DNA of 36,060 bases, taken from positions 1 to 36,060 of the IMG/VR virus record IMGVR_UViG_3300032277_000033, one strand, 5' to 3'. Shown here piece by piece: positions 3 through 32,610 of the stretch. Below the pieces are notes generated by a model, which had not been told where the DNA came from, made no database searches, and worked only from the letters and a program-made list of their open reading frames with translations. The DNA is from a virus (Duplodnaviria; Caudoviricetes). Made by a program: the position numbers and the translations under genes. Within the stretch, counting starts at the first letter, position 1; every line of letters starts with the position of its first letter.

Positions 3-149
3 CCTAATGAGCATTGCGAAATATGCGGAAGCATTATGGCTATTGAAGCTCACCATGATGATTACTTGAAGCCTTTAAATGTTAGATGGCTTTGCTCTTG
101 TTGTCATAAGCAATGGCATAGAGATAACGGAGAAGGGCTTAATGGTTAG
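3..149 (+). CDS. 3' end of HNH-like zinc-binding endonuclease (partial, runs off the window edge)
   Basis: Manual translation PNEHCEICGSIMAIEAHHDDYLKPLNVRWLCSCCHKQWHRDNGEGLNG*. The CxxCG...HHDDY.KPL.V.WLC..CH motif also occurs in 28614..29048. Confidence 0.8.
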   Translation, partial: PNEHCEICGSIMAIEAHHDDYLKPLNVRWLCSCCHKQWHRDNGEGLNG

Positions 150-178
150 CCTTTTTGATATAGATCAATAAAGAATAT

Positions 179-304
179 GCGGGAGTAACACAACGTAAAT
201 GTGAAAGCAAAGGGCATGTCCTTGTTATTAGCGCCTTAGTACGGTTGGTAGTGTGTGGTTTACTAAAGCCATTGTTGCAGGTTCGAGTCCTGCCTCCCGC
301 ACCA
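179..304 (+). ncRNA. tRNA-like element (126 nt) with intact acceptor stem, T arm and encoded CCA but a ~51-nt insertion; anticodon indeterminate
   Basis: GCGGGAG (179-185) pairs with CTCCCGC (294-300). T arm GCAGG-TTCGAGT-CCTGC (277-293); ACCA at 301-304. D-like arm GTAC-GGTTGGTA-GTGT (239-254); arm TGGTT-TACTAA-AGCCA (256-271). Confidence 0.75.
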
Positions 305-373
305 TATATGCCCTGCTTTTCACTTAACTAGCACTTTGGTTTGAGGTGGGGTATTTTAAATTAGGAGAAGAAG

Positions 374-922
374 ATGAGTGAATTAACTTTTGAAAAGTTT
401 CCAAGTATAAAGCGTCTAAAACGCAGCTGTGTAATTACTGAAAAACTTGACGGAACAAATGCCCAAATTAATTTTGATGTTGATGGAAATATTCTGTGCG
501 GATCAAGAAAAAGAGTTATAACGCCTGAAGATGATAATTTCGGATTCGCTAAATGGGCTTATGAGAATAAAAATAAACTGTTTAGTATTCTTGGTGAGGG
601 CCGACATTATGGTGAATGGTGGGGGCAAGGAATACAACGTGGATACGGCATGGATAAGAAAGTATTTAGCTTATTTAATTCTGGGAGGTGGGGTAAAAAG
701 GAGCTGGAATTAGTAGATCAATTAAGTGTGGTTCCTGTTCTTTATGCTGGTGAGTTTACAAGCACTCATGTGGATGATGTGATGGCGCAACTTAAAGGCT
801 ATAGCATAGCCGCTGAAGGATTCAGAAATCCAGAGGGTGTAATTGTTTATCATTCTCAAATAAAACAAATGTTTAAAGTTACTTTTGAGCATGATGATAC
901 TGGCAAGCCATACGGAGCATAA
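374..922 (+). CDS. RNA ligase (small Rnl2-like nucleotidyltransferase domain)
   Basis: Motif I EKLDGTN, GEWWG.GIQ, EGVIV and C-terminal FK; RBS AGGAG upstream. Confidence 0.8.
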   Translation: MSELTFEKFPSIKRLKRSCVITEKLDGTNAQINFDVDGNILCGSRKRVITPEDDNFGFAKWAYENKNKLFSILGEGRHYGEWWGQGIQRGYGMDKKVFSLFNSGRWGKKELELVDQLSVVPVLYAGEFTSTHVDDVMAQLKGYSIAAEGFRNPEGVIVYHSQIKQMFKVTFEHDDTGKPYGA

Positions 923-10558: not shown

Positions 10559-12252
10559 TATGCGGCTCCCTTACATTTCAATGCTGCTTTAATAGCAGTT
10601 GATGTTTCTTTAGCAATAGCCACTTTATCTGCTTCATCTTTCATAATTTCTAGCCCTGCTGCCTTTAACTCTGGCGGCAAATCATTAATATCTTCTGTAA
10701 TTTCATCTAACCACTTAGTGGCTTGATCTAAATCAACATTAGCATCAATACCACTATCTATCTTTTGCTGTATTTCAGCAGCTACTTTTGGCAGGCTTCC
10801 AGCGCCTAGTGACTCATTAGCGGTATCAATCGACTTTTTAAGGCCTTGTTGCTCAATGCCATCACTTACTGATTGAGATAGTTTATTCTTTTTAAATTTA
10901 TTAAGACGAGCATCTACTTCTTCAGTGACTAAATCATCATCAAGCTTACTTAGCTTTTCTTTCCTCGACGCATTATCAGCTATATTTTCATTTAATTTCT
11001 TTACTCTGCCATTTATTGCGTTTAACTTATCTTTAGTTTCAGAGGCTAATTTCTCATTCGCTTTCTTTGCTTTGCGCTTTCTGTCTGATTTACTGCCTTT
11101 AAAATCATCTTGAGTAAATTTTTTAACTGTCTCACTTTCTAGTTTTGCTTTTTCAGTTTTAGCTCTCTCAACCTCTTTCTGTAGGGATTCAGTCTTAGTC
11201 GCTATCTCTTTTAATTCTGCATTTGCCTTATCTGTTCTTGCTGAAAATTCACCCTGTAATTCGCTTCTAACAGTTGCTTCAACATCGGCCCTTTTTGGCA
11301 CAATAGATTCGTCCATCCCTTTTATCAAGGCTTCTATATTTACTTCTTTGCCTTCAACCATCTGATATACAGCAGTGCGACCTAGAATTTCTCTTTGTTG
11401 TGGGGTTAACGAATTAATATGTTCGGCAGTTTGCCCTATTGGTTGTGTTGTATGCTCAACTGGTGTGTTTAATTCTGCCTCGGTTATTGTGCCATCTTTT
11501 ATTTTAGCCGATCTCTTAGCTAGAGCATCACCGATAGCCCCCATTCCCATGTGCATACCACCACCAAATACAGTGCCGAATGCCACGTTTAGGAATGAAT
11601 CAGTTAAAGTGTAATCTAATTGTTCTTCAGTTAGTTGGTTATAAATAAGCGGCTCTAATGCAGCAGCACCAACACTGCCCTCAATAGCGCCAACTCTAGC
11701 CCTAACACCGGCCCTGCCTAATGCGCTAGTAGCATTAGCAAGCATAGTGCCCATACGAGCCTCACCGACAACAGGCACAAAGGCCGCGGCTACATTGAGA
11801 GGGTCTAATACAGATACACCTAATGACGTGCCTAGTTTTGCAGCACCAACAAAAAACCCGCTATCTCTATTACTAGCCGTTATTGAATTGCGAACCTGCT
11901 GCTCTTGCTGTAATCGGATTAACTCACTTAGCTTAAAGTCAGAAATGCCCTTTTCGGGTATTGTTAAATTAACACCCGCTTCTTCAGCCTTTGCTAGTGC
12001 ATCTACCTTAGTTACCTGGTTCTCTTTTACAGGCTTATTTCTATTTTCAGGCAGACCATAGCGTTCAGGAAATTTGCCTGAGAAAGCGACTGTTTCTTCT
12101 TGGTTTTGCTCTAACCCTCTAAACAATACTGGCGATATTGATTCAGTCCACGTAAGGCTTGCAGTAGCAGATAGAGCCTCGCCTAAATCGACCTCTTGAT
12201 CTTCAAGCAATTGAACTGAACTTATATTAGGTTCTTCAGTTACAAGTCTCAT
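10558..12252 (-). CDS. internal virion protein
   Basis: DPLNVAAAFVPVVGEAR followed by a Gly/Ala hydrophobic region and a Lys/Glu coiled coil; gene order. Confidence 0.7.
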   Translation of the reverse strand: MRLVTEEPNISSVQLLEDQEVDLGEALSATASLTWTESISPVLFRGLEQNQEETVAFSGKFPERYGLPENRNKPVKENQVTKVDALAKAEEAGVNLTIPEKGISDFKLSELIRLQQEQQVRNSITASNRDSGFFVGAAKLGTSLGVSVLDPLNVAAAFVPVVGEARMGTMLANATSALGRAGVRARVGAIEGSVGAAALEPLIYNQLTEEQLDYTLTDSFLNVAFGTVFGGGMHMGMGAIGDALAKRSAKIKDGTITEAELNTPVEHTTQPIGQTAEHINSLTPQQREILGRTAVYQMVEGKEVNIEALIKGMDESIVPKRADVEATVRSELQGEFSARTDKANAELKEIATKTESLQKEVERAKTEKAKLESETVKKFTQDDFKGSKSDRKRKAKKANEKLASETKDKLNAINGRVKKLNENIADNASRKEKLSKLDDDLVTEEVDARLNKFKKNKLSQSVSDGIEQQGLKKSIDTANESLGAGSLPKVAAEIQQKIDSGIDANVDLDQATKWLDEITEDINDLPPELKAAGLEIMKDEADKVAIAKETSTAIKAALKCKGAA

Positions 12253-32451: not shown

Positions 32452-32528
32452 TGGTCAGGGTGGAGGGACTTGAACCCTCGATCTCTCGGTTCCAAACCAA
32501 GTGACTTACCAAACTAGCCTACACCCTG
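32452..32528 (-). tRNA. tRNA-Pro (anticodon UGG)
   Basis: CAGGGTG TA GGCT AGTTTGGTA AGTC A CTTGG TTTGGAA CCGAG AGATC GAGGG TTCAAGT CCCTC CACCCTG ACCA. Confidence 0.95.
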
Positions 32529-32533
32529 TTAAA

Positions 32534-32610
32534 TGGTACTCAGGGAGAGACTCGAACTCTCAAAAACTAGATTCTAAATCTAGCGCGTATGCCAATTCCG
32601 CCACCTGAGC
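32534..32610 (-). tRNA. tRNA-Leu (anticodon UAG) with a short variable loop
   Basis: GCTCAGG TG GCG GAATTGGCATA CGC G CTAGA TTTAGAA TCTAG TTTTT GAGAG TTCGAGT CTCTC CCTGAGT ACCA. Confidence 0.92.

What the first reader, a model, noticed from the sequence alone, without database searches (positions are those of the whole stretch)
179..922. Over-long double-armed tRNA-like RNA directly upstream of an RNA ligase
Seen: a perfect 7-bp acceptor stem, canonical T arm and encoded CCA enclose 126 nt instead of ~76. Removing 51 nt (188-238) leaves a 75-nt cloverleaf with a GGTTGGTA D loop, but its anticodon loop is 6 nt (TACTAA) or 8 nt (TTACTAAA), never 7. The insert itself folds as a second D-like hairpin (CACA-ACGTAAA-TGTG, 189-203) and a second arm (AGCAAAGGG-CATG-TCCTTGTT, 206-226), so the RNA reads as acceptor, D1, arm1, D2, arm2, T. 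An RNA ligase gene starts 70 nt downstream. Known: phage tRNAs and RNA ligases counter host anticodon nucleases (PrrC, RloC, PARIS), and RNase P, CCA enzyme and EF-Tu read mainly the acceptor/T half. Inference: a non-decoding tRNA mimic or decoy, or a precursor that is cut and re-joined by the adjacent ligase. A decayed chimera of two tRNAs is the null hypothesis.
Basis: partly seen in the sequence, partly recalled or inferred. Interest (0 to 1): 0.8.

Follow-up and report, generated by a model that had tools for sequence, protein, structure and literature searches.

The report
Swappable tRNA look-alike in a phage
An uncultured phage carries a 126-base tRNA-shaped gene with perfect end arms, a 51-base insert and a broken code-reading loop; related phages hold the same gene without the neighbouring RNA ligase, an unrelated 64-base look-alike, or nothing at that spot, so it likely acts as a non-decoding tRNA mimic and is likely not spliced by the ligase.

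Summary
The RNA gene is real: 7/7 acceptor stem, canonical T arm and ACCA at 179-304. Without 188-238 it matches a phage tRNA-Trp at 58 of 76 columns, so it is a decayed class I tRNA with a 51-nt insert; the insert's 'second D arm' is not D-like above chance. The ligase (Rnl2-like, PF09414) is intact but not an obligate partner: a complete related phage has the RNA (124/126 identical) and no ligase; 0 of 56 ligase relatives carry this RNA, though one has an unrelated 113-nt look-alike upstream. The slot is exchangeable: another complete phage holds an unrelated 64-nt acceptor/T-arm/CCA RNA between the same flanks, and one relative has it empty. Best reading: a non-decoding top-half tRNA mimic, likely released by host RNase P and likely a decoy (0.45); neutral relic 0.3; ligase-spliced precursor 0.07. 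It resembles T4 species 1 and T5 RNA1/RNA2, whose function is unknown. This scan has noted RNAs of this kind several times on other DNA. No diverged homologue was found, so covariation is untested.

The parts
3..149 (+). 3' end of a small endonuclease-like ORF (HNH-type label from its Cys/His motif, recalled; no Pfam hit) preceding the RNA; in the same phage's longer contig it follows Rad52/Sak-type recombinase and SSB genes
   Evidence: (97% match of 105-142 to genes annotated endonuclease)
155..168 (.). Perfect 5-4-5 palindrome in the conserved 5' flank of the slot (resembles the FNR box, consensus recalled)
   Evidence: kept in G001 and G002
175..180 (+). First copy of a 6-bp direct repeat (second copy 306-311) that bounds the 131-nt segment missing in one relative
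   Evidence: joint 174->306, 6 letters fit on either side
179..185 (+). Acceptor stem, 5' strand (identical to E. coli leuW; 6 of 7 with Erwinia phage tRNA-Trp)
188..238 (+). 51-nt insert between acceptor strand and D arm (187-236 and 187-237 score equally); two predicted hairpins, 189-203 and 206-226; not tRNA-like by sequence; 203-219 is complementary to the trailer 306-320
239..254 (+). Decayed class I D arm (two G-T pairs, G in place of A14, GG of the D loop kept)
255..272 (+). Anticodon-type arm with 6- or 8-nt loop (4 nt in the lowest-energy fold); one base short against tRNA-Trp; 261 is T or C among alleles
277..293 (+). Canonical T arm
294..304 (+). Acceptor 3' strand, discriminator (A here, G in relatives) and encoded CCA
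308..358 (+). Trailer hairpin (12-bp stem) followed by a T run, terminator-like; kept in all alleles of the slot
   Evidence: 34 of 36 cells paired in 3 sequences; shuffle control not significant, 348/500
374..922 (+). Rnl2-like ATP-dependent RNA ligase, 182 aa, adenylation domain only, motifs intact; accessory gene, absent at this place in relatives

Best explanation
It is a tRNA-derived gene with a perfect acceptor stem, T arm and CCA but no usable anticodon, sitting in an exchangeable slot, and it likely works as a top-half tRNA mimic that host RNase P would cut out of the phage's early transcript and that likely serves as a decoy for enzymes that grip tRNA ends, without help from the ligase. 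Steps: (1) shown: a class I (Trp-like) core with a 51-nt insert and a broken loop; (2) shown: the same flanks hold a 126-nt RNA, an unrelated 64-nt RNA or nothing, and the ligase comes and goes separately; (3) inferred: transcription from the Sak-SSB-endonuclease unit (an 11/12 sigma-70 match lies before the endonuclease gene) to the trailer hairpin; (4) inferred from known RNase P specificity: cleavage at G179 and 3' trimming to CCA give a stable 126-nt RNA; (5) most speculative: the RNA soaks up host factors that read the acceptor, T arm and CCA, such as tRNA-tail nucleases; acting as a processing mark in the transcript is the next most likely use of the same shape.
For: Top half flawless while the lower half has an insertion, a lost base and a lost A14. 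The 64-nt allele was found by synteny, not by shape, and has 7/7 acceptor pairs, 6/6 T-stem pairs and CCA while its 28-nt middle is not tRNA-like (241 of 500 shuffles as good). Acceptor sequence and discriminator differ among alleles (A, G, C), which argues against a fixed amino-acid identity. RNA without ligase in complete genome G002 and a ligase-less joint 378->923 in run X4. [quoted passage not shown] Precedent of stable tRNA-like phage RNAs.
Against: Only two alleles were read in full, and the 126-nt one was picked for its intact ends. The RNA is no better conserved between window and G002 than the upstream flank (2 changes in 126 against 2 in 128), so no excess conservation is shown. One relative lacks it (one contig of depth 3.2). 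No diverged homologue of the 126-nt form was found, so covariation is untested. Nothing shows transcription, processing or any decoy effect, and no target defence system was identified.
Confidence: 0.45

Rival explanations
1. Neutral relic: a phage tRNA gene (Trp-like) disabled by an insertion and a deletion, carried along in a mosaic module and on its way out; the 64-nt allele is another relic.
For: Core is a decayed class I tRNA; insert has no conserved homologue (1 true match, G002, of 27 stretches) and the fold is not better than shuffles; clean absence via a 6-bp repeat in one relative; no excess conservation against the flank. A fourth allele in run X4, about 159 nt between the same outer ends with 5 differences in its last 54 aligned letters, could be an intact tandem tRNA pair from which this form arose (sequence not seen).
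Against: Two unrelated alleles both keep flawless acceptor, T arm and CCA while the middles have many lesions; the 64-nt allele was not selected by shape.
Confidence: 0.3
2. Attenuator or C4-like antisense switch: insert 203-219 pairs with the 5' strand of the trailer hairpin (306-320) and would let transcription read on into the gene behind it (here the ligase).
For: Duplex -21.7 kcal/mol, 7 of 2,000 shuffles as strong; -23.2 and 0 of 2,000 with the G002 trailer; for transcripts ending at 322-340 the alternative fold is within 0-2.2 kcal/mol of the tRNA-like fold; 92 of 71,780 genome windows pair as well. RNase P-processed antisense RNAs of phages are known (C4; PMC5320573, passages).
Against: Found after the fact; by local alignment 207 of 5,000 shuffles and 153 of 7,160 genome windows score as well; the full-length fold prefers separate domains by 8.7 kcal/mol; the 64-nt allele has no such pairing (611 of 2,000) and the trailer is kept when the RNA is absent; no Rfam C4 match.
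Confidence: 0.1
3. Intron-containing precursor: the 51-nt insert is cut out and the adjacent ligase joins the ends to give a ~75-nt tRNA.
For: The deletion gives the best-scoring cloverleaf and the best tRNA-Trp match; the ligase motifs are intact; an unrelated 113-nt look-alike lies just upstream of one ligase relative (L009); unexplained introns exist in Lak phage tRNAs (PMC6784885, passages); an archaeal tRNA-Leu with an insert before the D loop turned up (L182).
Against: RNA kept without ligase; 0 of 56 ligase loci hold it; the product would still have a 6/8-nt loop; none of 10 loose bulge-helix-bulge matches places cuts at the 187/238 junctions; no AAA_33 kinase of Pnkp type in 0 of 4 genomes (window 96% complete), whereas nuclease-cut ends need healing before 5'-3' ligation (PMC3400036, passages).
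Confidence: 0.07
4. Working decoder with an 8-nt loop (four-base or amber-type reading).
For: The 8-nt register shows two pyrimidines, four bases, then AA (ARAGORN 'acta').
Against: The loop closes further to 6 or 4 nt (pair probabilities 0.78-0.98); U33 becomes C in G002; the insert separates acceptor and D arm; stop codons in 23 long ORFs are ordinary (16 TAA, 4 TAG, 3 TGA).
Confidence: 0.03

Closest known systems
Phage T5 RNA1 (144 nt) and RNA2 (125 nt), annotated 'tRNA-like stable RNA with unknown functions' (AY543070)
   Same: Over-long RNA with tRNA acceptor stem and T arm around a non-canonical middle; RNA2 is 124-125 nt with a 7-bp acceptor stem.
   Different: No sequence match to the window RNA. 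T5's lie in a large tRNA cluster; this one stands alone after a recombination module, has its extra sequence before the D arm, and is exchangeable for a 64-nt form. T5's are annotated as stable RNAs; this one has no expression data.
Phage T4 species 1 RNA (rnaC, 139 nt; NC_000866 70908-71046)
   Same: Small phage RNA with a T arm near its 3' end and extra hairpins; function still given as unknown (PMC9697503, passages).
   Different: rnaC has a long, stable fold (z -4.4 against -1.13) and an imperfect acceptor stem; no sequence match.
Class I phage tRNA-Trp(CCA) (Erwinia phage Asesino, KX397364)
   Same: 58 of 76 columns identical with the 75-nt core, including U8-A9, D-loop GG, variable loop and T arm.
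   Different: 51-nt insert, one base missing in the anticodon arm, no CCA anticodon, G at position 14.
Intron-containing tRNAs (archaeal bulge-helix-bulge introns; Lak phage tRNA introns)
   Same: Same overall length (101-124 nt in the 15 archaeal hits) and, in L182, an insert before the D loop.
   Different: 14 of 15 archaeal hits are called with an anticodon-loop intron by ARAGORN, the window RNA is not at default threshold (99.8); no bulge-helix-bulge at its junctions; removal does not restore a 7-nt loop.
T4 RNA ligase 2 family (PF09414)
   Same: Motif I KxDG, SR, YGE, FxxF, EG and the motif V lysine are invariant or nearly so in 17 aligned relatives; profile hits T4 Rnl2 structures at E 1e-4.
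   Different: 182 aa, without Rnl2's C-terminal domain; activity untested.

Membership tests
Canonical tRNA (Rfam RF00005) | 7-bp acceptor stem, T arm, NCCA | tested here: met
Canonical tRNA (Rfam RF00005) | Score over the gathering cut-off; called by ARAGORN | tested here: not met
   19.7 bits against 29; not called
Canonical tRNA (Rfam RF00005) | 7-nt anticodon loop with U33; D arm 2 nt after the acceptor strand with A14 | tested here: not met
   6/8-nt loop, G14, 51-nt insert
T4 species 1 / T5 RNA1-RNA2 tRNA-like stable RNAs (a loose kind, not an Rfam family) | Over-long RNA with tRNA acceptor/T half and non-decoding middle | tested here: met
T4 species 1 / T5 RNA1-RNA2 tRNA-like stable RNAs (a loose kind, not an Rfam family) | Sequence homology to rnaC, RNA1 or RNA2 | tested here: not met
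   no blastn hit to the T4 or T5 loci at E 1e-3
T4 species 1 / T5 RNA1-RNA2 tRNA-like stable RNAs (a loose kind, not an Rfam family) | Located in a tRNA gene cluster | tested here: not met
   solitary; the window's two tRNAs lie at 32452-32610 on the other strand; no tRNA over the cut-off in G001 or G002
T4 species 1 / T5 RNA1-RNA2 tRNA-like stable RNAs (a loose kind, not an Rfam family) | Accumulates as a stable RNA during infection | not testable with these tools
   needs RNA from infected cells
Endonuclease/ligase-spliced intron tRNA | Bulge-helix-bulge at the insert junctions | tested here: not met
   none of 10 loose matches at the junctions; the test is permissive and also rings in most other RNAs tried
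Endonuclease/ligase-spliced intron tRNA | Excision restores a decodable tRNA | tested here: not met
   best products are 'tRNA-???'
Endonuclease/ligase-spliced intron tRNA | Joined product seen in RNA | not testable with these tools
   needs RNA reads
RNA-ligase two-part module | RNA and ligase co-occur in relatives | tested here: not met
   RNA without ligase in G002; 0 of 56 ligase loci hold this RNA; 1 of 56 holds an unrelated long look-alike
C4 antisense RNA type | Match to an Rfam C4 model | tested here: not met
C4 antisense RNA type | Complementarity to a target downstream in the same transcript | tested here: inconclusive
attP-type tRNA fragment of an integrating phage | Only the 3' part of a tRNA, beside a tyrosine integrase | tested here: not met
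   both acceptor strands present; PF00589 in 0 of 3 genomes (window 96% complete)
Rnl2-type RNA ligase (PF09414) | Pfam score over cut-off and intact nucleotidyltransferase motifs | tested here: met
   62.2 bits against 27
Rnl2-type RNA ligase (PF09414) | Sealing of 3'-OH/5'-phosphate RNA ends | not testable with these tools
   needs enzyme assay

The most novel reading that the evidence does not exclude
Small mosaic phages keep a dedicated cassette slot, between a fixed palindrome and a fixed terminator hairpin, into which unrelated acceptor/T-arm/CCA RNAs (126 nt, 64 nt, about 159 nt) are swapped as RNA anti-defence decoys against tRNA-tail-directed immunity; in the 126-nt allele the insert doubles as an antiterminator that couples the fate of the mimic to expression of a tRNA-repair ligase behind it.
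Probability: 0.1. Interest if true: 0.8.

Novelty: new variant of a known kind. Interest (0 to 1): 0.4.

Why it matters
T4 species 1 and T5 RNA1/RNA2 have been known for decades without a function. This locus offers a natural allelic series at one genomic slot (126-nt form, 64-nt form, empty; with and without ligase) that points to the acceptor stem, T arm and CCA as the only kept part. That turns a vague 'tRNA-like RNA' into three short constructs that can be tested side by side for RNase P processing and for protection against tRNA-end-directed defences. If they are decoys, they would be a compact RNA class of anti-defence factors missed by all tRNA finders. If they are relics, the result is ordinary.

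Tried and rejected
Expression: no RNA holder listed; all six runs were DNA-type contigs. Exact 28-nt T-arm/acceptor pattern in viral contigs: 0 stretches. Long-form patterns: 12 viral, 27 metagenome, 15 genome stretches; only L059/L079 (same contig, G002) and L089 (the window's phage) carry this insert; all 15 genome hits are archaeal tRNA genes, and the phage-like ones (L057, L058, L060-L068, L070, L075, L087, L090, L094) share only the ends that the pattern demanded (alignment). Acceptor-plus-hairpin-1 pattern: 1 true of 27. Trailer 16-mer: 2 true (G001, G002) of 6; 4 chance hits dropped. blastn of the RNA against E. coli genomes: no match; against phage records only T-arm-centred matches. 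I first read the RNA as a tRNA-Leu shell with hairpin 1 as its native D arm, since the acceptor equals E. coli leuW and ARAGORN's intron mode uses hairpin 1; dropped because hairpin 1 and the insert are not tRNA-like above chance while 237-276 is. A long variable-arm fold (233-241 with 261-269) has probability 0.00. The bulge-helix-bulge script is too permissive to identify introns. Covariation of the insert could not be tested: two sequences, two changes. tmRNA: not called in the window. Literature searches found no paper describing this RNA or such a slot: (0 papers); the library lacks most subscription journals and old T4/T5 papers, and I read no supplements (Table S6 of PMC6784885 lists the Lak introns and may bear on the intron comparison).

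Full report
Setting. The window is a 36-kb, 96% complete record of a short-tailed-type phage (head, portal, terminase, tail-tube and internal-virion hits in PHROGs; completeness). It holds two ordinary tRNAs at 32452-32610. A 39.8-kb contig of the same phage (L089, 100% identical over 1-1200) extends the left end and shows the order Rad52/Sak-type recombinase, SSB, small endonuclease-like ORF, the RNA, a hairpin, the ligase. An 11/12 sigma-70 match lies just before the endonuclease ORF (10 promoter-like sites found against 9.3 expected, so only a hint). The runs that hold most of the stretch are microbial mat metagenomes; three of the four may be the window's source.

Acceptor 179-185/294-300 (7 Watson-Crick pairs), T arm 277-293 and ACCA enclose 126 nt; both stems have pair probabilities of 0.98-1.0; a perfect upstream partner occurs in 122 of 20,000 shuffles. 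ARAGORN misses the gene and Rfam tRNA gives 19.7 bits on 237-293. The middle is weakly structured: z -1.13, hairpins 189-203 and 206-226 at probabilities 0.36-0.90, arm 255-272 at 0.78-0.98, the D2 stem at 0.00.

What the parts descend from. Sequence comparison is more telling: 237-276 resembles class I tRNA middles (3 of 1,000 and 0 of 500 shuffles), a D-loop GGTA at canonical spacing from a 5-bp arm occurs in 111 of 20,000 shuffles (test designed after seeing the sequence), and the 75-nt core matches a phage tRNA-Trp(CCA) at 58 of 76 columns (next best score 48 against 56 among 136 tRNAs; this tRNA was itself found by BLAST with the query). The insert side is not tRNA-like (132 and 194 of 500 shuffles; hairpin 1 against D arms 288 of 1,000), although hairpin 1 fits a class II D-arm register (808 of 20,000) and the acceptor equals E. 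coli leuW. So: a decayed class I core with one insert; 'two D arms' is a picture, not shown descent. The core lacks A14 and one base of the anticodon arm, and cannot form a 7-nt loop.

The ligase is real but separable. It scores 62.2 bits on PF09414, keeps all motifs in a 17-sequence alignment of 6,187 relatives found and its profile reaches T4 Rnl2. G002, a complete genome with terminal repeats, has the RNA with 2 changes in 126 nt and goes straight from the shared ribosome-binding site into the next gene; PF09414 is absent from G001 and G002. Run X4, not marked as a possible source, shows the same ligase-less joint. Of 56 viral loci with ligase relatives (55 with 400 nt or more upstream) none has this RNA, including the closest (76%). 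Against my reading: one (L009) has an unrelated 113-nt tRNA-shaped sequence about 40 nt upstream, and four have ordinary tRNAs directly adjacent (L013, L014, L016, L035). That is 5 of 56 against 1 of 74 SSB loci (p 0.08; L013 was added from ARAGORN, and L014 and L016 are near kin), so the ligase family may lean towards tRNA neighbourhoods without pairing with this RNA. No Pnkp-type kinase domain (PF13671) was found in 4 genomes; ends left by tRNA nucleases need healing before this ligase type can act (PMC3400036, passages; T4 Rnl2 seals 3'-OH/5'-phosphate nicks, PMC3884662, start of abstract in the search listing).

The slot is exchangeable. G001, complete and found through its SSB, has the same 29-nt 5' flank and the same trailer, but between them an unrelated 64-nt RNA: 7/7 acceptor pairs, 6-bp T stem, C-CCA, and a 27-28-nt middle that is not tRNA-like. 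Run X3 holds this allele at depth 102 beside the window's at 35. A contig of run X5 lacks 131 nt exactly between two copies of a 6-bp repeat (one contig, depth 3.2). A 204-nt contig of X4 joins 186 to 274 through about 120 other letters, about 159 nt in all, with 5 differences in the last 54 aligned letters; its middle was not shown, and it may be one long look-alike or two tRNAs. G001 and G002 share only 4,457 and 3,313 bases with the window and none of five virion or packaging proteins, so the slot travels with the early module between different phages. Other SSB and endonuclease relatives have no such RNA. Anticodon-less 60-65-nt forms also occur in 4 other of 38 viral stretches (L212, L226, L234, L236), found by a pattern that demanded the ends. 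The trailer forms a 12-bp hairpin before a T run in all three sequences (34 of 36 cells paired, one double change; not significant against shuffles); the consensus scan did not list it because its loop is long.

Mechanism. What two unrelated alleles share is what RNase P needs (acceptor, T stem and loop; PMC11143913, passages) and what Cas12a3 grips (PMC12851939, passages). Discriminator and acceptor sequence vary, so amino-acid identity seems free. I therefore commit to a top-half mimic that is likely released by RNase P and 3' trimming and likely acts as a decoy (0.45); transcription, processing and decoy action are all inferred. The relic reading stays strong (0.3): only two alleles were read, conservation does not exceed the flank, and the slot can be empty. 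The insert's complementarity to the trailer supports a minor attenuator reading (0.1) or an origin of the insert by inverted copying. Splicing by the ligase gets 0.07, decoding 0.03.

Known kinds and novelty. The closest are T5 RNA1/RNA2, annotated 'tRNA-like stable RNA with unknown functions', and T4 species 1 RNA ('yet unknown functions' in PMC9697503, passages). There is no homology to them and no tRNA cluster here, so I class it as a new variant of that kind, not a member of a family. It is not an archaeal-type intron tRNA and differs from the Lak introns as described (PMC6784885, passages), whose removal gives a typed tRNA. Seven literature searches showed no description of this RNA or slot; all other papers in those lists were seen as listings only. 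Earlier notes of this scan describe several RNAs of this kind in other phages, two of them beside ligase genes judged incidental; none matched this sequence. Interest 0.4: the kind is old and common, the new element is the natural allelic series.

Noticed in passing
window 155-168: Perfect 5-4-5 palindrome resembling the FNR box (consensus recalled), 10 nt before the RNA and kept in G001 and G002; a second match at 10723. Could be a host regulator site or a phage operator.
   Followed up: partly
window 203-219 with 306-320: Insert is complementary to the 5' strand of the trailer hairpin (15-16 pairs with a bulge); possible antiterminator or trace of inverted copying.
   Followed up: yes
L100 3460-3523 (G001): 64-nt anticodon-less tRNA-shaped gene in the same slot; part of its middle resembles the upstream flank as a direct repeat (seen by eye, not tested).
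   Followed up: partly
window 32534-32610 (-): tRNA-Leu(TAG) of only 77 nt without the long variable arm usual for bacterial tRNA-Leu, next to tRNA-Pro(TGG); G001 and G002 lack both.
   Followed up: no
L009 547-659: 113-nt tRNA-shaped sequence (6/7 acceptor, perfect T arm, no encoded CCA; weak tmRNA-model match, 18.2 bits) directly upstream of a ligase relative.
   Followed up: partly
L050 5988-6086: 99-nt tRNA-shaped sequence with short GC-rich hairpins in place of the D arm, 2.6 kb downstream of a ligase relative.
   Followed up: no
L057, L058, L060-L063, L065-L067: Phage tRNA genes of 114-133 nt with 28-55-nt inserts in the anticodon region (ARAGORN intron calls); L060/L062 and the L061 group recur identically in several contigs.
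   Followed up: no
L070, L075, L087, L090, L094, L064: 110-131-nt RNAs in phage-like contigs with leucine-type acceptor and D arm and unrelated multi-hairpin middles.
   Followed up: partly
L182 1501-1624: Nanoarchaeota tRNA-Leu(CAA) with a roughly 40-nt insert before the D loop, an archaeal analogue of the window's layout.
   Followed up: no
L212, L226, L234, L236 (601-665): 60-65-nt anticodon-less tRNA-shaped genes with encoded CCA in other viral contigs.
   Followed up: no
window 361-378: The ribosome-binding site and start codon behind the trailer act as a second exchange point: ligase, a small membrane-protein ORF or other genes follow it in different relatives.
   Followed up: partly
window against G001, G002: Strong mosaicism: early and replication modules shared at 86-89% identity, virion modules without tblastn similarity.
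   Followed up: partly
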